From contig CAWJQC010000004.1 of NCBI GenBank assembly GCA_963844965.1, positions 41,609 through 105,608 of the forward strand: a DNA stretch of 64,000 nt, given 5' to 3'. Shown piece after piece: positions 951 to 62,946 of this stretch. The first letter of the stretch is position 1, and the number at the start of each line of letters is the position of its first letter. The position numbers were made by a program, and so were the translations under genes. The notes under the pieces are model-generated. The model ran no database searches. It had not been told where the DNA came from and was given only the letters and a program-made list of their open reading frames with translations. Source of the DNA: an uncultured bacterium. GTDB lineage: Bacteria > Patescibacteriota > Minisyncoccia > UBA6257 > 2-01-FULL-56-20.

Positions 951-1439
951 ATGCTGACTTTTGAACAAATGATCTTGCGACTCATCGTCGCCCTCGCCCT
1001 CGGAGCGCTCATTGGCCTTGAGCGCGAACTCATCGGCAAAGAAGCCGGAATACGCACGACGATGCTTGTTTCAAGCGGAGCGACAATCTTCTCAATCATC
1101 GCGATGACTCTCCCCTACCTTGTCGCGACGGACGCGTCGCAGTTGCCCGACATCCTCGCGCACAACGGCGGCTTCCTCACAATAATAGGAAACATCATCG
1201 TCGGCATCGGCTTTATCGGCGCAGGCATAATACTCAAGGAAGAAGGGCGCGTGCGCAGCCTGACCACCGCGGCGGATGTCTGGTTCGCCGCCGCCGTCGG
1301 CATTCTTGTCGGTATTGGCCTGCTCAGCTTCGCTGTCGCTTCCGCAATACTCGTTGCCGGCCTTCTCTACTTACTGCGAAAAGTTAGGCTCTCCGAATAC
1401 GTGCGGCCGGAAGATAAGGCCGAAAACGTGTCGGACTAA
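951..1439 (+). CDS. mgtC: MgtC/SapB family membrane protein
   Basis: N-terminus LGALIGLERE plus multiple TM segments, 162 aa; typical MgtC family signature. Confidence 0.7.
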   Translation: MLTFEQMILRLIVALALGALIGLERELIGKEAGIRTTMLVSSGATIFSIIAMTLPYLVATDASQLPDILAHNGGFLTIIGNIIVGIGFIGAGIILKEEGRVRSLTTAADVWFAAAVGILVGIGLLSFAVASAILVAGLLYLLRKVRLSEYVRPEDKAENVSD

Positions 1440-1489: not shown

Positions 1490-1908
1490 TTTGTTGCTGG
1501 CAATCCGTAAGCCGGATTCTGTCGCGCCTGCCTGTCGGCAGACGATGCGATCATTTATCTGGGCCCTTGATTGCTCGCGGGCTCAAGCGGCACTTCCACC
1601 TCATCGGCGGACACGGCCTTGCACCCAGTAAGGATTTAGCCGTTTCATCTCCACTTTTTTATCCCTATGGCGGAGCTGGACCGACTAGCTTGGGATTGGG
1701 TCCGTCCGACTTTTTCAAATCGGACCGTTTCTGCTCGCACCTCTATTCTTACGAACGACGGCTGTTAGCCGCTACTATTTTATCCCTCCCCAGTTTTGCC
1801 AGTAATGTCACTGGCAAAACTGGGGAGGGATGGTGTCCGGACTTTCCTCCCTACATTTTCTAGAATTTTAAGAAAATGTAGGGCGATCGCCTAGATTGCC
1901 AGCTAACT
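1490..1908 (-). ncRNA. rnpB: RNase P RNA, bacterial type A
   Basis: Minus strand contains GGGAGGAAAGUCCGGACACC (P4 5' strand) and CGACAGAAUCCGGCUUACGG (ACAGAAnCCGGCUUA, P4 3' strand). P1 pairs GUUAGCUGGCAAUC with GGAUUGCCAGCAAC. P3 hairpin is CUACAUUUUC..GAAAAUGUAG. The overlapping plus ORFs 1276-1863 are spurious. Confidence 0.8.
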
Positions 1909-3595: not shown

Positions 3596-4545
3596 TTTAG
3601 CCTTTCAACAACTTCCATAGCGACCCTTCCAGCGTCTTCCTTACTTTTGAAGAAAGCACCCGCGGCGCCCTTGTGGCCGCCGCCGCCGTATTTTGCCATA
3701 AGTTCACCAGCATGAATTTTTGCCTCGCGCATTCGCCAGGGATTCGCTGAAAGCCCTACCTCAAAAAGGTTGTCGCTCCTTTGCAGGCGGACGGCATAGA
3801 TGGTCTTCGGATAAAGATAGTATGGCGCGAACCGCAGCTTGCCGCTACCTGCCAATGTCAGGTCTATAAATGTCGCCTTGCCGCGAACTTTTATGTTCTT
3901 CCGGTAAAATCTCAATCCCAATCTTATCTTTTTGCGCGCACCGGCTGCGCATTCCTGAACGCGCGGGTCTTTAGCTATTTCCCTGAGCGACTTCCGGGAA
4001 AGAAGGTCTATGAGCGGCCGGCGCGTGCTGTTATCATTGGCGTTCTTTTCAATGAAGGCGTCAATGCGGAGTGCCGGCTCCTTTACTTCAAGCGTCTGCT
4101 TGGCGGATCCATAACCCGCTCCGTCAATAATGTCCAGCCATTTCGTCAACTCCTTGAAGTGCTTGGGTGGTTTCCAGTCGAAACCGACGCGCAGTGACGC
4201 CTCGGTAAAATGGCACGCCGACTTATACGACGGATCGTAACGGCGGAACTTGGATGGTCTGAACTTTTTCCGCCAGCTTTCTTTCTGAAAAGCGGTCGGA
4301 TGGTGGTCAAACCAAAAAAAAGCCCCTGGGTGGTATTGGAAATCCAAAACGATGGCCGGATTGCGCCTGCCGCGGAAGAGTTTGTGCTTCAAAAAGAATT
4401 TTTCGTCCCGCCACTGCGGTAAAATATCAAAACCGAGAGGAACATAACGCTCAATATCGTCGCCGCGGTCGCGCAAAAATGCAAGCATCACCGCCGCTGA
4501 CGCCCATCCGTCAAAATCGTTGTGAAAATAGACGTCGTAAGTCAT
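3592..4545 (-). CDS. DHH/DHHA1 phosphoesterase, NrnA-like nanoRNase/pAp phosphatase
   Basis: Motifs HNDFDGWASAAV (DHH motif I), WFDHHP, and YGGGGHKGAAG (DHHA1 GGGH motif). Confidence 0.7.
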   Translation of the reverse strand: MTYDVYFHNDFDGWASAAVMLAFLRDRGDDIERYVPLGFDILPQWRDEKFFLKHKLFRGRRNPAIVLDFQYHPGAFFWFDHHPTAFQKESWRKKFRPSKFRRYDPSYKSACHFTEASLRVGFDWKPPKHFKELTKWLDIIDGAGYGSAKQTLEVKEPALRIDAFIEKNANDNSTRRPLIDLLSRKSLREIAKDPRVQECAAGARKKIRLGLRFYRKNIKVRGKATFIDLTLAGSGKLRFAPYYLYPKTIYAVRLQRSDNLFEVGLSANPWRMREAKIHAGELMAKYGGGGHKGAAGAFFKSKEDAGRVAMEVVERLK

Positions 4546-4769
4546 TCTCTATTATGATAACGCCTGCCGCCCCTCCTCGCCAACTATCTGAAGTCATCGG
4601 CGAAAAATTCATAACCGCAGATTAGCACGGGCGTGGAAAGAAAATACCAGAATACCACGTCGTCTATGGGAAAAATATGGCCGAAAACAAGAATTGGAAA
4701 GATATATTTTCCGGGTGACCAGGACCCCGTAATTTAGACACAAAGGTCGAAACAAACTACCATTGTGTC

Positions 4770-5033
4770 ATGAGCAACAAAAAAGGGCATCGGATTGCAA
4801 AGGAAGTGAAGGCGGACATCCTCCGCCGCGTGAAGGAAGAAGGCGTTTCGGTGGCCCAAGCCGCGAAGGACCACGGCTTGCACGAGTCCACCATCTATAA
4901 CTGGCTCGGAGCCGGAGCGGCAGGCGCTCCCTCGTGGAGCGAGTTCTCCCGCCTGCAGAAGCAGAACCGCGAGCTCTTTGAGGTGGTGGGCGAGCTCACC
5001 GTGAAGCTCTCTCAGGCCCAAAAAAAGAGTTGA
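4770..5033 (+). CDS. IS3 family transposase OrfA
   Basis: 87 aa HTH/leucine-zipper protein; ends at the slippery motif CCAAAAAAAG. Confidence 0.8.
   Translation: MSNKKGHRIAKEVKADILRRVKEEGVSVAQAAKDHGLHESTIYNWLGAGAAGAPSWSEFSRLQKQNRELFEVVGELTVKLSQAQKKS
5021..5031 (+). other. programmed -1 ribosomal frameshift slippery site of the IS3 transposase
   Basis: CCAAAAAAAG heptamer (A AAA AAG) exactly at the OrfA/OrfB overlap. Confidence 0.6.
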
Positions 5034-5812
5034 CGGAGAAACGGGACAAGTCGGCCCTGGCCAGGGCCATGGGCGTCTCACGGGCATCGCTCTACTACGT
5101 TCCGAAACAGTACGCGAAGGATTGGGCATTCAAGATCCTGATCGAGGAAGAGCTGCGGCGCCATTCCTCGTACGGCTCGCGGCGCCTGGCGCAAGCCCTC
5201 CACGCGAACCGCAAACGGACCAGGCGTGTGATGAAGCTCTTTGGCATCAAGCCATACCGGAGGCGGGGCAAGAAATATCGTAAATCAAAGGCATCGCGGG
5301 CCTTTCCGAACCTCTTACTTGCCATCATGCCCTCGTACGCGAACCACGTCTGGGCAACCGATTTCACGGAGTTCCTGTATCGCGGCAAGAAAGTGTACGT
5401 GTCCACGATACTCGATCTTTTCACGAGACGATTGATGGGCGTCCATGTGGCGTTGCGGAAAGGATCGCCCCTCACGATACAGACCCTGGCCAACGCGCTT
5501 TTCCACCATCCGCATCCGGTCATCTTCCATTCGGACAACGGCAGCGAGTACAAGGCACGAGCGTTCACCGATACACTGGGGGACTGTGGCATCACGATCT
5601 CGCGGTCGCGGCCCGGTGCCCCATGGGAAAACGGCTACCAGGAATCGTTCTATGACAAGTTCAAGATTGACCTCGGTGATCCCAACCGGTTCGGGACCTT
5701 CGGCGAGCTCGTGGCGGAGATCTACAGCACCTTGTGGCAGTACAACCACACGCGGATCCACTCCGCCCTCAAGATGCCGCCGTCCGTGTTTGCCGAGAAG
5801 ATTGCGGCTTAA
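5030..5812 (+). CDS. IS3 family transposase OrfB (DDE/rve integrase core)
   Basis: WATDFTEF, HSDNGSEY and PWENGYQESF give a D, D, E triad in rve-like spacing. Confidence 0.85.
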   Translation: MTEKRDKSALARAMGVSRASLYYVPKQYAKDWAFKILIEEELRRHSSYGSRRLAQALHANRKRTRRVMKLFGIKPYRRRGKKYRKSKASRAFPNLLLAIMPSYANHVWATDFTEFLYRGKKVYVSTILDLFTRRLMGVHVALRKGSPLTIQTLANALFHHPHPVIFHSDNGSEYKARAFTDTLGDCGITISRSRPGAPWENGYQESFYDKFKIDLGDPNRFGTFGELVAEIYSTLWQYNHTRIHSALKMPPSVFAEKIAA

Positions 5813-8027: not shown

Positions 8028-9822
8028 TTAAACGGTCCCTCGGGGTGACGCGCGGAACGCAGCCTCAACATCCAGGTCCTCCCAGCCGGCTTTCTTCAAT
8101 TCGCCGCGAATCACGTCGTCCACAAACGCGGCGGCGCGGGCGGCCCTGATATATTCCACGAGCTCCGGATTCTGGGAACCGGCTTGGGTTGATTTCACTT
8201 CCGCGGCCGGAGAAGCGGCGGTTGCGGCGTCCGCGCTAACTTGCCGCGCGGCTTCAGGGTTCGCCGCTGAAGCCGCTGAATTGTTTTTCTCCGCTTCTTC
8301 CCGCGTCGCCTCATGTTTTATAAGTTCTTTCTCTTCCGTCTCCAGCTTCACTATTTCCTCCTCCTCTTTTTTCATCCGCTTGCGAAGCATGACTACGACA
8401 AACGCCGCTATTATCAGAACCAACACTCCGCCGCCCGCGATAAGCCACGCGGTGAGTCCGACTCCGCTCAGCCGCTCCTTTATGACATCCCATGGCGTAT
8501 CAAGCGACCCGCCCGCGGCGATAAGCGCCGCGCACTGCTCTATATACGGGTCAGCGTATTTGTTTACGGAGAATTTCGCGTCGGAATTCTCGGCTATCTT
8601 GAATTGCTCCGTCGCTTTCTTGCACTGCTTGGCGTGCAGAAGCGCGAGACCCTGTTCCATTGAATCGGTGAAGCCGCTTGTATCGTTTTTCAGCGACTGT
8701 GCGTCAAGCGCGGCTTTCGCCAGTTCAACCGGAACGGCGGATGCGAAATTATCCCCTAAAATGTCGCTGAGCCCCGATTCAAATGTCACCAAACCAATGA
8801 CCTCTCCGTCAGCTCCGAAGAGCGGCCCTCCGCTTGAACCTTCGGAGATCTTCGCGTCCGATTGCAATATTTTGAAATCCTTATTTTGGGAATCTTTGAT
8901 GGCGGTTATCACTCCCTGTGTGAACGTCGGCTCAAGATAATCTTGCGACCCGATACTGGGCCGTACCCGGAAAGCCAAACACGTAAATTTTCTGGCCGAC
9001 AGCGGCCAACGCCGAAGCGCCGAGCTTCATGGCCGCGAGGTTACTTTCGCCAATCTTAAGAATAGCGACGTCCTTGTCGTCAAGGTTGTAGTTATCATTC
9101 ACGCTCAAAACCGTTGCCGGAAACGAATCTTTGATAAGTTCGGTGAGTTTTTGTTTCGTTGATGTCGGATTCAGCACGACGACCTCCCGCAAGATGTCAA
9201 AGCGGCTGTTGGCTTCCAGGGCGGATAAAATTTTCTTTCCATATTCTTCTCCCATGCTTTCCGCATCCAGCGAGTCAATCCCTTTATCTTTATAATACTT
9301 TTCCAAGTCCTGTATTTCATTCGGTTTCAAGGAGAACATTTCTTTGAATATCACCGACGTCATAGCCGCGCCGAGTATCGCCTGCCGCATGGTCTCTTCC
9401 GAAACAACATGGGAGTTTGTGAGGACCAGGCCGGATGGATTCACGACGAAACCGCTGCCCGCGAGATACTGCTCCGTGGAAGTGCCGTTAACGGCGCCTG
9501 ATTTCGGAAACGACACGGCAAACGTTCGGAGGTCAATGCTAAAATCGGGCACCGTTGAGGTTACCAGGAAATGCGTGAGCACCCGAACAATGGACGGCTT
9601 CGTTATGTCCGCCAATTCCTCTTCGCTCATCGCGAGCGGCTGCGGCGTGGGCATGCTCCAAAGATCGGAGAGCGACGCCGTCCCCGATCTCCCACCGCCG
9701 GGCAAACTGCGGAGAGCAACGGCGCCCAAAAACGCCGTGCTCACAAAAAGCGCGACCAAAAACAAAAAGAGCGGTAGCCATATCCGTCCACCTTCCCTAC
9801 CGTTGCCGATAAATGGCATGTA
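8028..9822 (-). CDS. membrane-anchored trypsin-like (S1) serine protease with a C-terminal TM segment and acidic/Ala-rich tail; split by a frameshift near 8950
   Basis: The N-terminal ORF carries the catalytic His (VLTNSHVV) and Asp (DVAILKI). The second frame carries the Ser motif GSSGGPLF. The two ORFs overlap at 8932-8978. Confidence 0.6.
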
Positions 9823-9949
9823 TAAATTATAACAAACCCGGAATGAGCCTGGCACTTCACGACAACTTAAACGTGGGTCTGAATTAACTCGTTCAAATCC
9901 AGCCAAAACTTAACCCGTTGCCCTAAACACTTCGTGTCGGGCAGCTAAA

Positions 9950-10200: not shown

Positions 10201-10452
10201 CTAGGCGGCACCGGCCGTGTCGGATTTGTCCTTGCTTATGCCGAGCTTGTTCATTAAACCCTTTCTCGTTTTCTCCAGCTCGGGCAACAGCACTCGGTCC
10301 TCTACCGTAGAATTACCGGCTCCCATCCACATGTTCAATTCTGCAATCCGCTTCTCAAGATTCTTAAGCTCGGCTATATCGGCCTCGCGCCTTGCCATTT
10401 TTGCCTCATCCTCTAACCTTTTTTCTTTTCGTTCAAACCATCCCATAAACAA
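10201..10452 (-). CDS. small coiled-coil hypothetical protein (83 aa)
   Basis: ORF only; lies between the two Thr tRNAs. Confidence 0.3.
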   Translation of the reverse strand: MFMGWFERKEKRLEDEAKMARREADIAELKNLEKRIAELNMWMGAGNSTVEDRVLLPELEKTRKGLMNKLGISKDKSDTAGAA

Positions 10453-10540
10453 ATGTTAGCAAGCAAACGCCACAATATCAATATTTATGCCTACGCGTCT
10501 TATTTAAACCGAACTGTTTTACCCCACACTTTCCGCCGAA

Positions 10541-10577
10541 TGAGCCGAGGAGAGGAGTCGAACCTCCAACCTACGGT
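10541..10577 (-). other. tRNA 3' fragment (T arm plus acceptor 3' strand, discriminator U) abutting tRNA-Thr(TGT)
   Basis: Reads GUAGGUUGGAGGUUCGACUCCUCUCCUCGGCU. The T stem GGAGG/CCUCU and T loop UUCGACU are present, but the segment upstream is occupied by the Thr tRNA, so no anticodon arm exists. Confidence 0.5.
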
Positions 10578-10605
10578 TTATCCCGATTTTGCAAAATTTG
10601 CCTTG

Positions 10606-10677
10606 AGCCGGCGGTCGGATTTGAACCGACGACCTGCTGTTTACAAAACAGCTGCTCTGCCGCTGAGCTACGCCGGC
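10606..10677 (-). tRNA. tRNA-Thr (anticodon UGU)
   Basis: GCCGGCGUAGCUCAGCGGCAGAGCAGCUGUUUUGUAAACAGCAGGUCGUCGGUUCAAAUCCGACCGCCGGCU; anticodon loop UUUGUAA. Flanked by ATTTTGCAAAA direct repeats. Confidence 0.85.
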
Positions 10678-10794
10678 AATTTTTTTGCAAAATCGCGGAC
10701 TCGCGATATTGTAAGCAAATCGTAGATTTGCACAATATCGGAGCAAAACCGTTGCTCCCTGCCCCGCACCGAGCTTTGCTCTGGTGCGCGGGTG

Positions 10795-10812
10795 CCATTG
10801 AACTACCTCGAC
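10795..10812 (-). other. possible tRNA 5' fragment (acceptor 5' strand plus start of D arm) matching the 3' fragment at 10541-10577
   Basis: GUCGAGG UA GUUCAAUGG. The first 7 nt pair with CCUCGGC of the downstream fragment (one G-U). The D stem is never closed. Confidence 0.3.
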
Positions 10813-10912
10813 AAATATGCCTGAACCCAAAAATTATTCTAACAGAAAATTGAAAAATCGGCAATTTTCATCAAAAAAGCCCCGCGCTCGAAGCACGGGG
10901 CTACTCAAAATA

Positions 10913-43541: not shown

Positions 43542-43755
43542 TGAATTTGAATAAACTTATTTTAATTCTCGCGCATATTGATGCGGGAAAGGGGTCGGGA
43601 AAACGGGAGTTTTCCCGTATAGGAAAAAGGCCGGAGGCCGAGTTAAAAACCGAGAGGTTTTTAAGGAGCGGGTTGCTGTATAGCGACTCGCGACCGTCTA
43701 TATGCGCGATTATTCCTATATTTCTTACTTTTTCTACTGGATATTGTCGCGGCAT
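43534..43755 (-). other. upstream mini-ORF duplicating the first 20 codons of fusA ([20 protein letters not shown]), then unrelated sequence; overlaps the fusA start
   Basis: 19/20 aa identical to the true EF-G N-terminus ([20 protein letters not shown]), but 18 of 20 codons differ at synonymous sites (AT-rich codons). Followed by hairpins GGCCUCCGGCC and CGGGAAAACUCCCG(U4). Confidence 0.45.
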
Positions 43756-46124: not shown

Positions 46125-46222
46125 AACAATAATATCCGAAAACCGCGGTCTTTGCCAATTAAGAAAAAACAAATTAAAATGAGCATGTCGCCCTCGTGGT
46201 GAAACTTGCCCTCCCACCTTTG

Positions 46223-46294
46223 TCCCTGTAGCTCAACGGATAGAGCGTGTGGCTTCGAACCACAAGGTTGCAGGTTCAAATCCTGCCAGGGACG
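46223..46294 (+). tRNA. tRNA-Arg (anticodon UCG), embedded between perfect 13 bp inverted repeats
   Basis: GUCCCUGUAGCUCAACGGAUAGAGCGUGUGGCUUCGAACCACAAGGUUGCAGGUUCAAAUCCUGCCAGGGACG. Flanks are CCCTCCCACCTTT / AAAGGTGGGAGGG. Confidence 0.85.
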
Positions 46295-46327
46295 CAAAGG
46301 TGGGAGGGTGAAGATATCATATGTGGC

Positions 46328-46375
46328 TTCGAACCACAGGTTCCAGGTTCGAGTCCTGGCGAGGGCACACACAAC
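46328..46375 (+). other. partial duplicate of the tRNA-Arg 3' half (anticodon arm through acceptor), att-like repeat
   Basis: UGUGGCUUCGAACCACAGGUUCCAGGUUCGAGUCCUGGCGAGGGCA lies 33 nt after the intact tRNA. Confidence 0.5.
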
Positions 46376-46883: not shown

Positions 46884-48278
46884 CTATTTCTGCAAGCTCA
46901 GAATTTTATTCCTGAACGTCAACTTACTCTTGAAGCAAGATAGCAATTCGCGTTTCTCGACCGTGCTGCCCTTTTTGAGAAGATATTTTGCGTACGTTTT
47001 AAGGTCAATTTCTTTAGTGGCCGCTTTCGATCCTTCTCCCAAGACATCGTTCGCGAATTTGCGATATCGTTCCATCTCGTCTTCGAATTTCTTCTGCATC
47101 CCAATCTCACTGATATCCATCTCGTCAATGATAGCGAGAAGTTGAGCGATCAATTCCTCTTCGCGAATGTATCCGCACTTGCAATCCTTATCTTTCGAGC
47201 GTGAGCATCCATAGTACACGTACCGCGCCGTCGTTCCATCCTTGTGCGCCTTATATTTCTCGCACGCACTGATGCCCGATCCGCATAGGCCGCACGAGAT
47301 CAGTTTCGTAAACGAAAATTCCTTTATCTCCGACCTGATGACAAAATCTCGGTGCAGCTGCTCCTGTACTTTATCGAACAGCTCCCGCGAAATGATTGCT
47401 TCGTGCTTGCCGCTGTACCAGTTACCGCTCTTCAGTGGATACTCAAAGATGCCGCAGTAAAATGGATTTTTGAGGATGATATAAATATTGGATAACGAAA
47501 GCACTTTCCCATTCTTTGTTCTGAATTTGATTTCCGACTTCAGCCAATGATAAAGCTTCCGGCCCGACCATTGTTCGTCGGCGACTTTCTGGAGCATTTG
47601 CTTGATGACGGGCGCTCGCAGGGGATCAATGATAACTTCACAAGGACGGTCGGTGCTCTTCTCGTTAAGATACCCTGTCGGTGCGATAGACGGACGCAAA
47701 CCTTGTTCGCACCGCATCCGTAATCCGCGCTTCACGTTTTCCGATTTGTTATCATTCTCAAGTTTCGCTTGGCTGCACAAAATCATCAACATGAATTTCT
47801 CGCTCGGCGAGTTCGTGAATTTCTGGCTGAAGGTTCTGATCTCGATAAGTAATTTTTGATCCATCAAGTCCACCAAGCCGCCAAGGTCGCCCGCGTTGCG
47901 GCTCAAGCGATCCGGCGCCCATGTAAGGATACCGTTGAATTCGCCGGAACGAATATCAATAAGCAACTCGTTAAAAATTTTTCGCTGGCCGACAGCTTTT
48001 GCGGAATGGCTTTCCTTTCTAACTTCGGCGATCTCAAGGTTATCGCGCTCGGCGATTTTCAGCATCTCCTTTATCTGACTATCAATGGAAAGCACTTGCT
48101 GTTCCTCGCTCTCCGTACTTTTCCTCGCATAGAGGCAGTATTTTATTTTTATCGCTTCGGCCTTTGTCGCAGAAACGCCCGACTGATCCCAGCCCTTTGG
48201 TATATTTGTTATTTTCTCCATACCTAAGGGATGCCGCAACGGCGGAAGGAGTCCAGAGCATCCTTGTCGGTAACTCAA
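46884..48278 (-). CDS. large serine recombinase (integrase)
   Basis: N-terminal resolvase domain with YARKSTESEEQ (catalytic Ser), recombinase domain, Zn-ribbon CGLCG..C and coiled-coil C-terminus. Confidence 0.8.
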   Translation of the reverse strand: MSYRQGCSGLLPPLRHPLGMEKITNIPKGWDQSGVSATKAEAIKIKYCLYARKSTESEEQQVLSIDSQIKEMLKIAERDNLEIAEVRKESHSAKAVGQRKIFNELLIDIRSGEFNGILTWAPDRLSRNAGDLGGLVDLMDQKLLIEIRTFSQKFTNSPSEKFMLMILCSQAKLENDNKSENVKRGLRMRCEQGLRPSIAPTGYLNEKSTDRPCEVIIDPLRAPVIKQMLQKVADEQWSGRKLYHWLKSEIKFRTKNGKVLSLSNIYIILKNPFYCGIFEYPLKSGNWYSGKHEAIISRELFDKVQEQLHRDFVIRSEIKEFSFTKLISCGLCGSGISACEKYKAHKDGTTARYVYYGCSRSKDKDCKCGYIREEELIAQLLAIIDEMDISEIGMQKKFEDEMERYRKFANDVLGEGSKAATKEIDLKTYAKYLLKKGSTVEKRELLSCFKSKLTFRNKILSLQK

Positions 48279-52648: not shown

Positions 52649-52881
52649 AAGCCACCTCCTTTTCCAGATTCAACCAACTGCTTCCACTCTACCAAAAAGC
52701 GGGAAAAAATCCAGAACCTGTCCAAGTCGTTGCGGAAAGACGTTTTTGGATATAAAATAATAAAACCGGCCGCGAAGCCCGACATAATCAGCGCCATTCG
52801 GCTTAATAAAAATCCGCCCATAGCTCCCACCTTCGCCGAGGCTTCGGCGGGCAAGCAACTGGCCCCGCACCAAAATTTATC

Positions 52882-52954
52882 CGCGCGTAGCTCAACTGGC
52901 AGAGCAGCTCCCTCTTAAGGAGACGGTTGCAGGTTCGACTCCTGCCGCGCGGAC
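52882..52954 (+). tRNA. tRNA-Lys (anticodon CUU)
   Basis: CCGCGCGUAGCUCAACUGGCAGAGCAGCUCCCUCUUAAGGAGACGGUUGCAGGUUCGACUCCUGCCGCGCGGA; anticodon loop CUCUUAA. Confidence 0.8.
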
Positions 52955-53084
52955 TGGAAAAATTAAGGATAAATTTGGTGCGGGTTAGACGCCGCAGCTC
53001 TCCTCTTACAACCGCGTAGCGAGGCGAGGATAAAAATCGCCAATTTTTATTTTCGCCGAGCGAGCGGGTGGCGAAACAGGTTTT

Positions 53085-53125
53085 CGCAGGAAAAGGTTCC
53101 AGGTTCAAGTCCCTGCTTGCCAGCA
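53085..53125 (+). other. tRNA T-arm-like repeat matching the fragment at 46328-46375 (candidate att core)
   Basis: AAAGGTTCCAGGTTCAAGTCCCTGCTTGCCAG versus ACAGGTTCCAGGTTCGAGTCCTGGCGAGGGCA (21/23 identities in the core). Confidence 0.4.
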
Positions 53126-53623
53126 GGCAGGCAGGTGGGCGGACACAGAATCGAGGATCTCCGGCAGCTCACCTCTTTTTTATTGACAACACACACGTTA
53201 TTTTTTAATCTAAACAGTAGCGTCTGTTAAAAATTAAAAATCGGGAGCGGCAATGTATAGTCTGTTTGGAAGATTCGAGCGGATAGGCGAAGCGAAATAT
53301 TCCGCCGAGGAAATCTGTCTTTTCCGGTTAATCGACCTTCTATTACATCGCGGATGGAGATTCCTGGGATGCCTGTGGAACGGCAAAAAATATAAGATAA
53401 AAATAAAAAATCTCCGCACCGGCAAAAAACGCTCTTTCAAATCAGGACGCCCATATTGGCTCTCAAGCGATGCCGACGGAAATTTATTCTAACCCCACCG
53501 AATGAACAGGTGGGTTTTTGTTTTGGGGTAAATTTGGTATAATATGTGCGCGATGTGCTTGGCTCATATTGGGAAAACGTGGCGCCGGACACCGAACAAA
53601 TTCCGTTCTATGTATAAATCATT

Positions 53624-56305
53624 ATGAGTGGGATAAAAATAAATCTTTCTCTCAGCGAAATCCCAGGCATCGGCCCGCGTTTTCTGGAACGGCTGGGAAA
53701 ACTCGGCATAAAAACCGTCCGTGATCTCATTTATCATTTTCCGGCCCGCTACGAGGATTTCTCCCAGATATACAAAATTTCCGACGTTGAGCCGGGGGAA
53801 CAGGTAACAATACGTGGCGTTGTTGAAGACACCAAACTGCGGCGGACTTGGAGAAAACACATGACAATCGCCGAAGCCCTGATCCGCGACGATTCCGGAA
53901 CGATACGCGCCATCTGGTTCAACCAACCATATGTTTTGAACACTCTGCGGGTCGGGCGCACGGCGAATTTCGCAGGCAAAATATCCATATCGGACGAGGA
54001 CGAAATTTATTTGAGCCACCCGGCTTATGAAATCGTCGGCAGTCGGGAGTCGGGAACGGAGAAGCAAGAAACAAAACATACAGCGCGGCTCGTCCCCATT
54101 TATCCCGAAACGCGCGGCCTCACATCCAAGGGGTTGAGATATCTGATCCAGCCAATTCTGAAAAACAGCGAACAGCTGGAGGAATGGCTGCCGCCGGAAG
54201 TTCTGCGCGAAAATAATTTTCCCGAAATAAACCTTGCGCTCAGATCCATACACTTCCCCGAAAAAACCGAGGATGCTCTTGTCGCGAAAAAACGCTTCAC
54301 TTTTGAAAACCTGTTCCTGCTGCAACTCGCCAATCTTGAACAAAAATTGAAACTCGCGCGCGAAAAAGCGCCAGTGATCAAAACCGACATAGAACACCTG
54401 AAAAAAATGATCTCGGAACTGCCATACGAACTCACGTTTTCGCAAAAGAAATCATTGTGGGAAATCATCCAGGACCTCGCCAAAAAACAGCCGATGAACC
54501 GCCTGCTCCAGGGCGACGTGGGCTCCGGCAAGACGGTTGTCGCGGCGCTCGCCGCGGTAATTACCGCGGAAAACGGGCTGCAGACCGCGTTTATGGCGCC
54601 AACCGAGGTTCTCGCGAGACAGCATTTTGAAACATTGAAAAAATTATTCGCCGGAATTCCCTCGATCCATCAACCCGTAGTTGGGCTTCTCACGTCAAGC
54701 GAAGCAAAAATCCTCTACGCGACAGACCTTGAATCAAAAATCAAAAAACCGGAGTTGCAGGAAAAAATAAAAAACGGCGAGGTAAAAATAGCCATCGGCA
54801 CGCACGCTTTGATACAAAAAGACGTGGCGTTCGGCAATCTTGCCTTTATCATCATTGACGAACAGCATAGATTCGGCGTCTCACAACGAGCTGCGCTCGT
54901 TCGCGGACAGACGCAGAATGATAATACGCGGACAGACGCTGAACAACTACTATACGAAAAAACGACGTTTGAGATAAGAAAAAGTCTGTTTGAGGTGAGA
55001 AAACAACTGGGCCTTGGTCATAAAGAAGTGGTGTATCAGAAAGCATTGGAGGAGGAGTTCAAGAAATCCGGTGTAATATTTGAGAAAGAAAAGAAAATTC
55101 CTGTCGTTTATAACAAGAAAAAGATTGGCGTTTATCAACCGGATTTTGTCATAGATAATGAAGTAATTTTGGAACTTAAGGCTCTTCCCTTTATCGGCGG
55201 CATCGAAAAAAAACAGCTGTGGAATTATTTGAGGGGTTCGGATTACAAACTCGCGCTTATGGCAAACTTTGGACCGGAAAGATTATCCATAGAGCGGGTA
55301 GTATACGATATTGCGCGGAGTCGGCGGCTGTCAGCGTCCGGTCAGCAACTGTCCGCGCCTATCCCCCACCTCCTCTCAATGTCCGCCACGCCAATCCCAC
55401 GCACGCTCATGCTCACCGTCTTCGGCGATTTGGATATATCGCTCATCACCGAACTTCCCGCCGGCAGAAAAAATATCGTAACAAAAATAATCCCCCCACG
55501 GGGCAGGAGCGAAGCCTATGAATTCATCCGCGGCGAAGTGAGGGCCAGCCGGCAGGTTTTTGTCATCTGCCCCCGCATTGACAAACCGCAGACAGGCGCA
55601 GACCACACGCAGACAAACGCAGACAAGACACAGACAGACGCAGACAATTTTCAGCGGCTGTCTGCGTCAAGTCAGCGACTGTCCGCGTTAAGTCCACGTA
55701 AGTCCGCGTTAGTGTGGGAAGTAAGATCCGTGAAAGAAGAATTTGAAAAATTATCCAAGAAAATTTTTCCGGATTTGCGCGTCGCCATGCTCCACGGCCA
55801 GCTCAAGCCAAAAGAAAAAGCGGGTATCATGAAGGACTTCCGCAACTACAAAATAGATATTCTCGTTTCAACTTCCGTCGTGGAAGTTGGCGTGGACGTG
55901 CCGAACGCAACAATAATGATGATTGAAGGCGCCGATCGCTTCGGGCTGGCTCAGATCTACCAATTCCGCGGACGCGTGGGGCGCGGCGAACACCAATCCT
56001 ATTGCTTCCTGTTCACGGATTCGTCCGCCAAAACTACGCGCGAGCGGCTGCAGGCCGTCCTTGAAGCCAAGAACGGCTTTGAGCTCGCCGAGAAGGACCT
56101 GAAGATCCGCGGTCCCGGCGAATTCCTCGGCACGGCGCAGACCGGCTTTCCCGACACGGCGATGAGCGGCCTCATGAACCCGGAGCTCGTGAAAGCAAGC
56201 CGCGAAGCGGCGGCAAAAATCGTCCAAAAAGATCCGCTTTTCAAAAATTATCCGCTCCTGAAAACCAAATTAAACGAGTTCCGGAAGGAAATCCACTTGG
56301 AGTAG
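53624..56305 (+). CDS. recG: ATP-dependent DNA helicase RecG (893 aa) carrying two in-frame insertions
   Basis: Wedge/OB N-terminus; helicase motifs GSGKTVVA, IIIDEQHRFGV, SATPIPRTL, TSVVEVGVDVPNA, QFRGRVGRG; intact ORF. Confidence 0.85.
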   Translation: MSGIKINLSLSEIPGIGPRFLERLGKLGIKTVRDLIYHFPARYEDFSQIYKISDVEPGEQVTIRGVVEDTKLRRTWRKHMTIAEALIRDDSGTIRAIWFNQPYVLNTLRVGRTANFAGKISISDEDEIYLSHPAYEIVGSRESGTEKQETKHTARLVPIYPETRGLTSKGLRYLIQPILKNSEQLEEWLPPEVLRENNFPEINLALRSIHFPEKTEDALVAKKRFTFENLFLLQLANLEQKLKLAREKAPVIKTDIEHLKKMISELPYELTFSQKKSLWEIIQDLAKKQPMNRLLQGDVGSGKTVVAALAAVITAENGLQTAFMAPTEVLARQHFETLKKLFAGIPSIHQPVVGLLTSSEAKILYATDLESKIKKPELQEKIKNGEVKIAIGTHALIQKDVAFGNLAFIIIDEQHRFGVSQRAALVRGQTQNDNTRTDAEQLLYEKTTFEIRKSLFEVRKQLGLGHKEVVYQKALEEEFKKSGVIFEKEKKIPVVYNKKKIGVYQPDFVIDNEVILELKALPFIGGIEKKQLWNYLRGSDYKLALMANFGPERLSIERVVYDIARSRRLSASGQQLSAPIPHLLSMSATPIPRTLMLTVFGDLDISLITELPAGRKNIVTKIIPPRGRSEAYEFIRGEVRASRQVFVICPRIDKPQTGADHTQTNADKTQTDADNFQRLSASSQRLSALSPRKSALVWEVRSVKEEFEKLSKKIFPDLRVAMLHGQLKPKEKAGIMKDFRNYKIDILVSTSVVEVGVDVPNATIMMIEGADRFGLAQIYQFRGRVGRGEHQSYCFLFTDSSAKTTRERLQAVLEAKNGFELAEKDLKIRGPGEFLGTAQTGFPDTAMSGLMNPELVKASREAAAKIVQKDPLFKNYPLLKTKLNEFRKEIHLE
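54903..55357 (+). mobile_element. in-frame insertion inside recG encoding a GxxExxY-type PD-(D/E)xK domain, bounded by inverted repeats
   Basis: Left end is a tandem CGCGGACAGACGC (54903, 54927). Right end is GGCTGTCAGCGTCC...CAGCAACTGTCCGCG (55349-55357 is the reverse complement of CGCGGACAG). Encoded segment: GLGHKEVVYQKALEEEFKKSGVIFEKEKKIPVVYNKKKIGVYQPDFVIDNEVILELKA...LMANFGPERLSIERV. Confidence 0.5.
55588..55712 (+). mobile_element. second, cargo-less in-frame palindromic insertion of the same repeat family inside recG
   Basis: CAGACAGGCGCAGACC...GACAGACGCAGACAATTTTCAGCGGCTGTCTGCGTCAAGTCAGCGACTGTCCGCG. Translates as QTGADHTQTNADKTQTDADNFQRLSASSQRLSALSPRKS between conserved RecG blocks. 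Confidence 0.45.
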
Positions 56306-62634: not shown

Positions 62635-62946
62635 ATTAAGTGCATTATAGCAAACCGGCGGCGGATGTCAACCCCCACACCAAACGAGGACGCGCGCCTT
62701 CGGCGCAGGACCCGGAAAGTCCTCGTTTGGTGTGGGGGTAAATTATGCCGAAAAAGCCGGAAGGAAAGATGCGATCTATGTTTCTCCCGCAAGAATACCC
62801 CCGCCGCAGGCGGGGGATGAATTGCGGTTCGAGAAACATAAACCCCGCCGATGGCGGGGTGAACTACCACCTAACATGCTGCATGTGCTAAGTATTTCGT
62901 GCGCAGCACGGCAGTTGAGATACCACCGCTGTGAGGCGGTGGTAGT

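What the first reader, a model, noticed from the sequence alone, without database searches (positions are those of the whole stretch)
10541..10812. Disrupted tRNA(Gly-like) gene whose halves bracket a palindrome-rich segment containing tRNA-Thr(UGU)
Immediately 3' of tRNA-Thr(UGU) lies a clean T arm plus acceptor 3' strand (GGAGGUUCGACUCCUCUCCUCGGC-U) with no D or anticodon arms. About 230 nt upstream, on the same strand, sits GUCGAGGUAGUUCAAUGG. Its first 7 nt pair with that acceptor 3' strand (one G-U), and the rest is a canonical start of a D arm (UAGUUCAAUGG, as in tRNA-Gly(UCC)-type genes), but the D stem is never closed. Between the halves are a 16 bp compound hairpin (CGATATTGTGCAAATC..GATTTGCTTACAATATCG), a GGAGCAA..TTGCTCC hairpin, a CCCGCGCACC..GGTGCGGGG hairpin, and ATTTTGCAAAA direct repeats flanking the Thr tRNA. 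This looks like a tRNA gene broken by insertion of a small element that carries its own tRNA, or an att-site scar. In E. coli the analogous locus is thrU-tyrU-glyT-thrT.
Basis: seen in the sequence. Interest (0 to 1): 0.6.

Follow-up and report, generated by a model that had tools for sequence, protein, structure and literature searches.

The report
tRNA gene nested inside tRNA gene
The "broken tRNA" is the bacterium's original threonine tRNA gene, split in its anticodon by a small structured insert that carries a complete replacement tRNA with the same anticodon; this Russian-doll arrangement recurs at other tRNA genes and in related genomes and I found no description of it.

Summary
All features lie on the minus strand. 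The outer gene (10812..10543) is the counterpart of the uninterrupted tRNA-Thr(UGU) found beside dnaE in related Paceibacteria (Patescibacteria).

It carries two inserts:
- A 35-nt palindromic hairpin in the D loop.
- A 163-nt module exactly between anticodon nucleotides G35 and U36. The module has a roughly 20-bp hairpin (Pa) and a 13-bp helix (Pb) whose tip is the complete inner tRNA-Thr(UGU).

Deleting both inserts in silico gives a sequence that ARAGORN calls tRNA-Thr(UGU).

The same design occurs at tRNA-Arg(UCG) and tRNA-Lys(CUU) in this window. It also occurs at the Thr locus of at least four other assemblies. The Pa/Pb module is 85-93% identical in three distant genomes whose closer relatives lack it, which points to horizontal movement. 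At the Arg locus a relative keeps the window's "outer" tRNA intact, itself nested in an older shell, so replacement happens in layers.

Best reading: a mobile, site-specific insertion that is tolerated because it brings its own replacement tRNA. The outer gene is the disabled predecessor. Whether the tRNA-shaped shell still has a role is open. I found no description of this in the literature searched.

The parts
10836..10864 (-). Sigma-70-like promoter (TTGCCG, 17 nt, TAGAAT) upstream of the outer 5' half. It probably drives the whole nested unit.
   Evidence: The region is about 84% conserved with L161.
10793..10812 (-). Outer tRNA-Thr(UGU), 5' part: acceptor 5' strand GUCGAGG (10812-10806), U8 A9, D-stem 5' strand GUUC (10803-10800), D loop AAUGGCA.
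   Evidence: Matches the GCCGGAG UA GCUC AAUGGCA of relatives. L161 has GCCGAGG UA G.
10758..10792 (-). 35-nt palindromic hairpin inserted in the outer D loop (CCCGCGCACC, 12-nt loop, GGUGCGGGG, then CAGG). Its arms belong to the CCC-n-CAC(C)/(G)GUG-n-GGG family of palindromic elements.
   Evidence: Absent from the L163 and L162 outers. Family: 18 elements versus 0 in shuffles.
10744..10757 (-). Outer tRNA: D-stem 3' strand GAGC, A26, anticodon-stem 5' strand ACGGU, then U32 U33 U34 G35.
10699..10743 (-). Pa: a long imperfect hairpin at the 5' end of the anticodon-loop insert (CUCCGAUAUUGU-G-CAAAUC, loop UAC, GAUUUG-CUU-ACAAUAUCG-C-GAG-U).
   Evidence: Nearly invariant in L163 and L100.
10678..10698 (-). 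CC-G linker, Pb 5' arm CGAUUUUGCAAAA (10695-10683) and leader AAAUU.
   Evidence: perfect 13-bp inverted repeat. (one compensatory C:G to U:A change versus L163).
10606..10677 (-). Inner, complete tRNA-Thr(UGU): the presumed working gene.
   Evidence: ARAGORN. Rfam, 72.7 bits. G1:C72 and C2:G71 are intact.
10581..10605 (-). Trailer CAAGGCAAA, Pb 3' arm UUUUGCAAAAUCG (10596-10584) and GGA, which pairs with the UCC after Pa. This is the end of the 163-nt insert.
10543..10580 (-). Outer tRNA, 3' part: U36 A37 A38, anticodon-stem 3' strand ACCGU, variable loop AGGUU, T arm GGAGG UUCGACU CCUCU, acceptor 3' strand CCUCGGC, U73.
   Evidence: A 30-nt block is identical in L161.
46190..46367 (+). Second nest. 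The outer tRNA-Arg(UCG) is interrupted in its D loop by a 14-bp helix (GCCCUCCCACCUUU/AAAGGUGGGAGGGU) that carries a complete tRNA-Arg(UCG) at 46222-46295.
   Evidence: The outer exons (15 + 54 nt) are identical to an intact tRNA in L164.
52814..53143 (+). Third nest. The outer tRNA-Lys(CUU) pieces (CCGCCCA UA GCUC ... UGGGCGG A) carry a helix with a complete tRNA-Lys(CUU) (52881-52954), an insert of about 85 nt at 37/38, and a small hairpin in the T region.

Best explanation
The region is one transcription unit that holds two tRNA-Thr(UGU) genes, one inside the other.

The outer gene is the lineage's original tRNA-Thr(UGU) beside dnaE. It was invaded exactly between anticodon nucleotides G35 and U36 by a 163-nt structured module made of hairpin Pa and helix Pb. 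The tip of Pb is a complete tRNA-Thr(UGU). A 35-nt palindromic element separately entered the D loop.

The promoter upstream of the outer 5' half transcribes everything. RNase P and 3' end processing cut the inner tRNA from the tip of Pb, and that tRNA does the decoding. The outer gene cannot decode, because its anticodon loop has become a three-way junction and no known bacterial machinery removes such an insert. Its halves fold back into a tRNA-shaped shell.

The module moves between genomes and always lands in the same tRNA. The invasion is survivable only because the module supplies the same anticodon. Repeated rounds build layers, with each former inner tRNA becoming the next outer shell, and old shells decay.

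Shown: the anatomy, the homology, the recurrence, the patchy distribution and the layering. Inferred: the processing steps, the loss of decoding by the outer gene, and how the module moves.
For: - **Identity of the outer gene.** It is the counterpart of uninterrupted tRNA-Thr(UGU) genes at the same position next to dnaE. Removing the inserts in silico gives a tRNA-Thr(UGU) by ARAGORN, in the window and in L163.
- **Folding.** The whole unit folds as nested cloverleaves: z = -7.9 for the window, -6.0 for L163, -7.2 for L161.
- **Base-pair support.** The window/L163 consensus has 77 pairs, 15 with compensatory double changes and none broken.
- **Same insertion site, different modules.** Site 35/36 is used in the window, L163, L100, L162, L092 and, approximately, L161. 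The window and its sister L161 (DnaE 90%) share the same outer gene but hold different modules. L163 and L092 share another outer type and also hold different modules.
- **Patchy distribution.** The Pa/Pb scaffold is 85-93% identical in the window, L163 and L100. These genomes have DnaE identities of 69-77% and saturated fourfold sites (0.39-0.54). Their nearer relatives L161, L162/L092 and L022 lack it.
- **Layering.** In L164 the window's outer tRNA-Arg is intact and sits inside an older shell. The window's outer Arg exons are identical to it.
- **Decay series.** L163's outer is intact. The window's has U2.G71, U11.G24 and the D-loop insert. L161's and L162's are not callable as tRNA. In L100 both the inner and the outer are dead. 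L032 and L098 keep only a 5' relic.
- **Rarity of the helices.** Perfect helices of 10 bp or more flank only 5 of 118 tRNAs examined, all of them nested or relic-bearing cases.
- **Independent assemblies.** The arrangement is seen in at least five independent assemblies, which argues against an assembly artefact.
Against: - The outer 3' block (30 nt) is identical between the window and L161 although neutral sites are saturated, while the anticodon-stem region differs. A dead relic should decay evenly. This needs either very recent independent invasions or continued selection on the acceptor/T-arm shell.
- Pa/Pb is still about 93% conserved in L100, where both tRNAs look dead.
- The roughly 85-nt insert in the outer Lys gene is conserved, with compensatory changes, between the window and L164 (read by eye from the two sequences).
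- No transposase, homing endonuclease or integrase was found at the Thr locus, so how the module moves is unknown.
- Only 64 kb of this genome is visible, so I cannot show that the inner gene is the only working tRNA-Thr(UGU).
- There are no expression data.
- My scans required an intact T arm and 7/7 acceptor pairing, which biases the sample towards well-preserved shells.
Confidence: 0.6

Rival explanations
1. The insert is a true intron of a new kind, and the outer gene still makes a working tRNA-Thr(UGU). The module would be cut out at G35|C and A|U36 and the exons rejoined, so one gene would yield two tRNAs.
For: - The boundaries are clean, and exact removal restores a canonical tRNA in the window and in L163.
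- Only U34, G35 and U36 are left unpaired at the three-way junction.
- Position 35/36 is where Patescibacteria carry group I introns in other tRNAs (PMC13011429).
- Outer stems show compensatory changes between genomes.
- Pa is followed by U-CCA in L163 and L100, and by U-CCG in the window. That makes it resemble an RNase P minihelix substrate whose predicted cut is the 5' boundary.
- RNase P and RNase Z leave 3'-OH and 5'-phosphate ends, which are what ATP-dependent RNA ligases join (established enzymology, from my own knowledge).
Against: - There is no group I core: no RF00028 match at E up to 10.
- The 5' exon ends in G and the insert ends in A, so the U and omega-G rules of group I introns are not met.
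- I could find no bulge-helix-bulge motif.
- In L100, where the inner tRNA is truncated and the outer would be needed, the outer is also degenerate: A35 and no anticodon-stem 3' strand.
- The L161 and L162 outers cannot be restored to a tRNA.
- The product would duplicate the inner tRNA.
- The D-loop modules in Arg replace G18/G19.
Confidence: 0.12
2. The outer gene no longer decodes, but its acceptor/T-arm shell is kept by selection, perhaps together with Pa/Pb. It would act as a tRNA-like handle that sets the transcript ends, recruits RNase P or the CCA-adding enzyme, or protects the precursor until the inner tRNA is released. Plant mitochondrial t-elements work in a comparable way.
For: - A 30-nt outer T arm plus acceptor block is identical between the window and L161, although fourfold sites are only 0.52-0.54 identical and the interior cannot be aligned.
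- Acceptor pairing is 7/7 in the window (Thr, Arg, Lys), L161, L163, L100 and the L164 shell C, even where the D and anticodon arms have decayed.
- The C2-to-U change keeps pairing with G71.
Against: - Part of this pattern comes from how I found the cases: the scans demanded an intact T arm and acceptor.
- L162 has an acceptor mismatch. L078 lacks the 5' strand. L092, L098 and L032 lack the 3' half.
- Most tRNAs in these genomes manage without such a shell.
Confidence: 0.2
3. The region is an attachment-site scar of an integrative element. The 3' piece would be an att duplicate of a tRNA 3' end and the 5' 18-mer a coincidence.
For: - True att-like duplicates of tRNA 3' ends do occur nearby in relatives: L161 after Thr(GGU) and L164 after shell C.
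- A large serine recombinase gene lies about 500 nt from the Arg nest.
Against: - The 5' piece is conserved and pairs with the 3' piece in four other genomes.
- The D stem, anticodon stem and loop nucleotides of the same tRNA are all present in order around the inserts.
- No integrase gene was seen near the Thr locus in the ORF list, and there are no direct repeats at the boundaries.
- The 3' piece differs in sequence from the inner tRNA, so it is not a copy of it.
Confidence: 0.03
4. The pattern is a chance resemblance, or a chimeric metagenome assembly.
For: The window comes from an uncultured organism, and short 7-nt complements are common.
Against: - The same architecture appears in independent assemblies with different sequences: GCA_040960625.1, GCA_041480965.1, a Logan assembly of SRR18214642 and JGI contigs.
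- The fold z-scores are -6 to -8.
- There are 15 compensatory pairs.
Confidence: 0.02

Closest known systems
Group I introns in the anticodon loops of Patescibacteria tRNA genes, including the unusual 35/36 site (Nakagawa et al. 2026, PMC13011429)
   Same: Same phylum. The insert is in the anticodon loop at 35/36, has clean boundaries, and hides the host tRNA from standard tRNA finders. Relatives here carry classical group I introns in tRNA-Thr(GGU) at 36/37.
   Different: No group I core. No U at the 5' splice site and no terminal G. Only 163 nt, of which 72 are a complete tRNA. Probably not spliced. It carries a replacement gene instead.
Rickettsia palindromic elements (Ogata et al. 2000; from my own knowledge)
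   Same: Small palindromic selfish DNA that lands inside genes at tolerated places, in frame in proteins and also in RNA genes. The D-loop hairpin and several tRNA-bearing helices share arms (CCC-n-CACC / GGUG-n-GGG) with elements that sit in frame inside dnaE of L149 and L077.
   Different: A different phylum and sequence family. Here some elements carry a whole tRNA at their tip and sit inside the tRNA gene of the same anticodon. The Pa/Pb module has different arms.
Integrative elements that target tRNA genes and restore the 3' end they displace (Williams 2002; from my own knowledge)
   Same: The same logic: the invader of an essential tRNA gene brings the sequence needed to keep the function. 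The anticodon loop and T loop are known preferred target sites.
   Different: Those elements are kilobases long, encode an integrase, and replace only the 3' part, leaving a duplicated 3' fragment. Here a module of about 160 nt with no gene for an enzyme brings a whole tRNA and leaves both halves of the old gene around it.
Disrupted archaeal and algal tRNA genes: bulge-helix-bulge introns, split tRNAs of Nanoarchaeum, permuted tRNAs (PMC4090602, PMC3978253)
   Same: tRNA genes interrupted at non-canonical positions, including the D loop. Long complementary helices hold the two halves together, as Pb would after the inner tRNA is released.
   Different: The host is bacterial (bacterial RNase P RNA and DnaE). 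I could find no bulge-helix-bulge motif, and the halves are neither separated nor permuted. In those systems the interrupted gene is the working one. Here it is most likely not.
Intervening sequences in bacterial 23S rRNA (from my own knowledge)
   Same: Helical inserts in the loops of a structured RNA, cut out without re-ligation, with a patchy distribution among strains.
   Different: Fragmented rRNA remains functional. A tRNA cut in its anticodon cannot decode.

Membership tests
Canonical bacterial tRNA (the inner gene) | Cloverleaf that scores above the Rfam RF00005 gathering threshold, with an anticodon assigned. | tested here: met
   72.7 bits against a threshold of 29. ARAGORN calls Thr(UGU).
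   The split loop reads UUUG|UAA, giving the anticodon UGU. ARAGORN calls Thr after in-silico removal of the inserts. It is 85% identical to intact tRNA-Thr(UGU) genes of relatives.
Group I intron in a tRNA | Conserved catalytic core (P3-P9), detectable with RF00028 or by similarity to the divergent Patescibacteria Thr introns. | tested here: not met
   No RF00028 match at E up to 10. By eye, no resemblance to the Thr(GGU) introns of L008, L016, L025 and L026. Only about 90 nt are not tRNA.
Group I intron in a tRNA | The 5' exon ends in U (a U.G pair in P1) and the intron ends in G. | tested here: not met
   The boundaries are G35|C and A|U36 in the window, L163 and L100.
Group I intron in a tRNA | Insertion in the anticodon loop with exact restoration of the tRNA on removal. 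| tested here: met
Archaeal-type bulge-helix-bulge intron | Two 3-nt bulges separated by a 4-bp helix at the splice sites. | tested here: not met
   The two boundaries face each other at a three-way junction, and no 4-bp central helix can be drawn. Checked by inspection.
Archaeal-type bulge-helix-bulge intron | The host encodes a splicing endonuclease (EndA). | not tested
   Only 64 kb of the genome was available.
tmRNA, one-piece or two-piece | A tRNA-like domain with G3:U70, a tag reading frame, and detection by ARAGORN or Rfam. | tested here: not met
   Position 3:70 is C:G. ARAGORN finds no tmRNA. The beta-tmRNA match is 10 bits against a threshold of 84.
att scar of an integrative element | A direct repeat of the tRNA 3' end, with an integrase gene between or beside the repeats. 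| tested here: not met
   The 3' piece is not a copy of the inner tRNA (72% identity overall, different T arm). No integrase gene was seen within about 2 kb in the ORF list. Pfam found nothing for the two small neighbouring ORFs.
Palindromic selfish elements (like Rickettsia palindromic elements) | A recurring family of palindromic arms at many sites, including in frame within protein genes and within RNA genes. | tested here: met
   This applies to the D-loop hairpin and to the Arg and Lys helices. There are 18 elements with perfect arms of 11 bp or more, against 0 in shuffles. Two sit in frame in dnaE. The Pb arms of the Thr module are not of this family.
Mobile insertion element (the Pa/Pb module) | A distribution that conflicts with host phylogeny, plus sequence conservation above the neutral level. 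| tested here: met
   85-93% identity in the window, L163 and L100. Absent from their nearer relatives. Fourfold sites are saturated.
Mobile insertion element (the Pa/Pb module) | An identified mobilising enzyme or demonstrated transposition. | not testable with these tools
   The module encodes no enzyme. No matches in the viral or phage collections.

The most novel reading that the evidence does not exclude
The Pa/Pb module could be a new class of bacterial tRNA intron, defined by the cell's own tRNA end-processing enzymes.

- Pa followed by U-CCA would mimic an acceptor/T-arm minihelix, so RNase P would cut at G35|C.
- The Pb helix with its unpaired A would direct RNase Z to cut at A|U36.
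- The inner tRNA would be released by the same two enzymes.
- The resulting 3'-OH and 5'-phosphate ends would sit side by side in the anticodon loop, where an RNA ligase could seal them.

One gene would then give two tRNAs. A related possibility is that the conserved acceptor/T-arm shell plus Pa/Pb is a functional tRNA-like RNA in its own right.
Probability: 0.1. Interest if true: 0.95.

Novelty: new variant of a known kind. Interest (0 to 1): 0.68.

Why it matters
- **A further class of disrupted tRNA gene.** If this reading holds, it adds nested genes to the known intron-containing, split and permuted ones: the invader of an essential RNA gene pays for the damage by carrying a full replacement.
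- **Rapid allele turnover.** It would explain why tRNA-Thr(UGU) alleles turn over unusually fast at one locus in Paceibacteria while neighbouring tRNAs stay nearly constant.
- **Hidden tRNA remains.** Tiny, streamlined Patescibacteria genomes would hold layered tRNA remains that standard annotation cannot see.
- **A possible processing role.** The conserved tRNA-shaped shell and the very conserved Pa/Pb scaffold raise the testable possibility of a processing role, or even a splicing route that relies on RNase P and RNase Z.
- **Annotation.** tRNA counts and tRNA-based integration-site predictions in candidate-phyla genomes should take such nests into account.

Tried and rejected
- **Gly identity.** Rejected by comparison with relatives and by ARAGORN after in-silico removal of the inserts.
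- **tmRNA or two-piece tmRNA.** Rejected.
- **Group I intron.** No core, and the boundary nucleotides are wrong.
- **Bulge-helix-bulge intron.** No motif.
- **Repeat family in the window.** Counts of GGTGCGGGG (15 against 16 expected) and TTTTGCAAAA (only the two arms) showed no proliferation. A later search based on paired arms did reveal a palindromic family across loci.
- **Closer relatives.** The genome and metagenome scans gave at most 78% DnaE identity. The useful relatives came from the protein search plus exact-protein look-ups. Look-ups of the window's own DnaE and of the 87-aa neighbouring ORF found nothing.
- **Phage or viral origin.** No matches for Pa, Pb or the CCC-arm patterns.
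- **Known RNA families.** Rfam finds only tRNAs in the nested loci.
- **A promoter inside Pa** (TTGTGC, 16 nt, TACAAT). Noticed by eye but not called by the scan, so left as a possibility.
- **Literature.** Four searches found the group I intron paper but nothing on nested tRNA genes.
- **Co-conversion of exon sequence next to the module.** Module copies of the same type do not share identical flanking exon sequence, so this is not supported.
Full report
**What is in the sequence.** All features lie on the minus strand. ARAGORN and Rfam find one tRNA in the interval, tRNA-Thr(UGU) at 10677..10606, scoring 72.7 bits. GUCGAGG-UA-GUUCAAUGG lies at 10812..10795. GGAGG UUCGACU CCUCU CCUCGGC U lies at 10567..10543.

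Folding 10815..10538 as RNA gives -121.7 kcal/mol, z = -7.9. The fold shows more than two loose halves:
- The acceptor strands pair 7/7.
- GUUC (10803-10800) pairs with GAGC (10757-10754) around a 35-nt hairpin.
- ACGGUUU pairs with AAACCGU around the rest.
- Inside that lie a long hairpin (Pa) and a perfect 13-bp helix, CGAUUUUGCAAAA/UUUUGCAAAAUCG (Pb), whose tip is the annotated tRNA.

Read in order, the outer pieces are acceptor, U8 A9, D arm, A26, ACGGU, UUUG | UAA, ACCGU, AGGUU, T arm, acceptor, U73. That is a complete tRNA-Thr(UGU) interrupted in two places. A 35-nt insert sits in the D loop (10792-10758). A 163-nt insert sits exactly between G35 and U36 (10743-10581).

**Identity of the outer gene.** The neighbouring dnaE gene places the organism in Patescibacteria, class Paceibacteria, near Liptonbacteria. 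In about twenty related genomes a plain tRNA-Thr(UGU) sits at this same spot, divergent from dnaE. The L003 and L009 genes read GCCGGAG UA GCUC AAUGGCA GAGC A GCGCU UUUGUAA AGCGA AGGUU GGAGG UUCGACU CCUCU CUCCGGC U. This matches the window's outer pieces segment by segment. With both inserts deleted, the window's outer sequence is called tRNA-Thr(UGU) by ARAGORN. It is 85% identical to those uninterrupted genes, and the inner tRNA is only 72% identical to it. So the disrupted gene is Thr, not Gly. No Tyr or Gly gene lies between the two Thr genes in this clade.

**The arrangement recurs in the window.**
- *Arg.* At 46190-46367 an outer tRNA-Arg(UCG) has, in its D loop, a 14-bp helix (GCCCUCCCACCUUU/AAAGGUGGGAGGGU) that carries a complete tRNA-Arg(UCG). 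Rfam sees the outer only as a partial tRNA, 30.2 bits. ARAGORN calls the outer Arg(UCG) after removal of the insert.
- *Lys.* At 52814-53143 the pieces of an outer tRNA-Lys(CUU) surround a helix-borne tRNA-Lys(CUU) and further inserts.

In all three nests the inner and outer anticodons are the same. Among 118 tRNAs in the window plus 167 fetched loci, perfect flanking helices of 10 bp or more occur only at these three, at L163 Thr and at L078 Ile.

**The arrangement recurs in relatives.** The protein search found closer relatives than the contig scans did.
- *L161* (DnaE 90% identical) has the same outer gene: GCCGAGG UA G at the 5' end, and a 30-nt block from the variable loop to the 3' end identical to the window's. 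Its interior is completely different, and its inner tRNA-Thr(UGU) is of another type (GCCACCU), 91% identical to the resident genes of other Paceibacteria.
- *L162* has a nest at the same site with one acceptor mismatch and no anticodon-stem 3' strand.
- *L163* has an outer gene of yet another type (GCCAUCC/GGAUGGC) that is a perfect tRNA-Thr(UGU) once its insert is removed. That insert is homologous to the window's Pa/Pb module.
- The RNAalifold consensus of the window and L163 units has 77 pairs, 15 with compensatory double changes and none broken. Pa is invariant.
- *L100* carries the same Pa/Pb module, but the tip of Pb holds only the 3' third of a tRNA. Its outer gene has A35 and no anticodon-stem 3' strand, so both copies look dead there.
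- *L092* has the L163-type outer 5' half followed, after UUUG, by a different module.
- *L032 and L098* keep only a 5' relic upstream of a complete gene.
- *L078*, a distant genome, has tRNA-Ile(GAU) on a 12-bp helix inside the D loop of another tRNA. The helix and its flanks resemble the window's Arg case.

**Age and mobility.** Fourfold-degenerate sites of dnaE are 0.39-0.54 identical among these genomes, which is saturated. Against that background the Pa/Pb scaffold is 85-93% identical among the window, L163 and L100. Those three have pairwise DnaE identities of 69-77%, and their nearer relatives (L161; L162 and L092; L022) lack the module. The same outer gene type holds different modules (window versus L161; L163 versus L092). 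The same module type sits in different outer gene types. This two-by-two pattern indicates repeated, independent invasion of the same site by modules that move between lineages.

The Arg locus gives a direct before-and-after pair. In L164, from the same assembly as L161, the tRNA that is the interrupted outer gene in the window is intact. The window's 15 + 54 exon nucleotides are identical to it. That intact tRNA is itself the inner gene of an older shell. Replacement therefore proceeds in layers.

**A link to palindromic elements.** Several helices share arms of the form CCC-n-CAC(C)...UUU / AAA...(G)GUG-n-GGG. They include the helices that carry the Arg, Lys (window), Ile (L078) and Thr (L161, L162) tRNAs, and the D-loop hairpin of the window's Thr outer gene. 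A scan for such pairs with perfect arms of 11 bp or more finds 18 in 1.53 Mb and none in five shuffles. Two of them sit in frame inside dnaE of L149 and L077. This recalls the Rickettsia palindromic elements (from my own knowledge). The Pb arms of the Thr module are a different sequence.

**How it most likely works.** A sigma-70-like promoter (10864-10836), conserved in L161, lies upstream of the outer 5' half. No convincing promoter was called inside the insert. The unit is therefore probably one transcript. The inner tRNA has all the features RNase P and 3' processing need. The outer has its anticodon loop replaced by a three-way junction in which only U34, G35 and U36 are unpaired. The insert has no group I core and no bulge-helix-bulge motif (and inspection).

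I therefore take the inner gene as the working one and the outer as its disabled predecessor. Carrying the same anticodon is what makes the invasion survivable. The range of outer-gene states fits this reading: intact in L163; two G-U changes and a D-loop insert in the window; not callable as tRNA in L161 and L162; both copies dead in L100; 5' relics only in L032 and L098.

**What this does not explain.**
- The outer T arm and acceptor are better kept than a dead relic should be. A 30-nt block is identical between the window and L161 while the anticodon-stem region differs.
- Pa/Pb stays conserved even in L100.
- The roughly 85-nt insert in the outer Lys gene is conserved, with compensatory changes, between the window and L164 (read by eye).

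Part of this pattern comes from how I found the cases, because my scans demanded an intact T arm and acceptor. Very recent invasions would explain more of it. A retained role for the tRNA-shaped shell remains possible, in processing or stability, or even a splicing route that uses RNase P and RNase Z. Pa is followed by U-CCA in L163 and L100, which is suggestive. I give these readings 0.2 and 0.12.

**Novelty.** Four literature searches found the recent report of group I introns at 35/36 in Patescibacteria tRNAs (PMC13011429) and reviews of archaeal disrupted tRNAs (PMC4090602, PMC3978253). They found nothing on a tRNA nested in a tRNA gene of the same anticodon. I class the finding as a new variant of known kinds: selfish insertions in RNA genes, and invaders that restore their tRNA target. 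The mechanism of movement is unknown.

Noticed in passing
window 46190-46367 (+): A second nested tRNA. A complete tRNA-Arg(UCG) sits on a 14-bp helix inside the D loop of another tRNA-Arg(UCG). In relative L164 the outer one is intact and is itself nested in an older shell.
   Followed up: yes
window 52814-53143 (+); L164 290-752; L166 about 1000-1330 (-): A third nest at tRNA-Lys(CUU). The outer gene also carries a structured insert of about 85 nt at position 37/38, conserved with compensatory changes between the window and L164, plus extra inserts in the T region. In L164 the inner and outer Lys genes share the same acceptor and T arm.
   Followed up: partly
window 46884-48278 (-): A large serine recombinase gene (Resolvase, Recombinase and zinc-ribbon domains) lies about 500 nt downstream of the Arg nest, followed by genes of unknown function. 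This may be an integrated element at the tRNA-Arg locus.
   Followed up: partly
window about 43579-43710 (+); L161 7420-7285 (-); L164 2590-2455 (-); L166 about 1120-1000 (-); also L011, L093: A conserved element of about 125 nt that starts GGGAAAGGGGTCGGGAAAACGGGAGTTTTCCCGT. In relatives it sits in the T loop of leftover tRNA 3' pieces, followed by a duplicate of the tRNA 3' end. In the window it is intergenic and flanked by the inverted repeat TCGCGCATAT/ATATGCGCGA. Rfam gave no match where it was scanned (L161, L164).
   Followed up: partly
L149 6452-6552, L077 4077-4154; window 62672-62738: Palindromic elements with arms CCCC-n-CACC..TTTT / AAAA..GGTG-n-GGGG. Two are inserted in frame, with no stop codons, at the same place in dnaE of two genomes. 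The window has a palindrome with 20-bp arms at 62672-62738.
   Followed up: partly
L008 about 450-740, L016 about 4820-5100, L025 about 4785-5040, L026 about 4330-4625 (all -): tRNA-Thr(GGU) genes interrupted at 36/37 by introns of about 190-230 nt with a group I-like core. ARAGORN misses them. They match the 'divergent group I introns' described in PMC13011429.
   Followed up: partly
window 53624-56305 (+): RecG helicase with a PD-(D/E)XK_3 nuclease domain inserted at residues 447-558. The same domain is a free-standing gene between rpsG and fusA in L164.
   Followed up: no
window 8028-9906 (-): A trypsin-like protease is split into two overlapping reading frames (8932-9906 and 8028-8978). 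This may be a frameshift or a sequencing error.
   Followed up: no
window 1493-1902 (-): The RNase P RNA only just reaches the Rfam threshold (100.2 against 100) and spans 410 nt for a 367-position model, which suggests extra inserts.
   Followed up: no
window 10201-10452 (-): An 83-aa reading frame with no Pfam match fills the gap between the outer 3' piece and tRNA-Thr(GGU). It is absent from L161, where the two lie 46 nt apart.
   Followed up: no
L100 about 130-60 (-); L022 4185-4296: Further possible nests. A tRNA 5' piece (GCCCAUG UA GUUU AACGGCA plus a hairpin) lies just upstream of tRNA-Thr(GGU) in L100. tRNA-Trp in L022 is flanked by CCCTCACCTTTT/AAAAGGTGGGGG arms, with a possible leftover T-loop and acceptor piece after them.
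   Followed up: no
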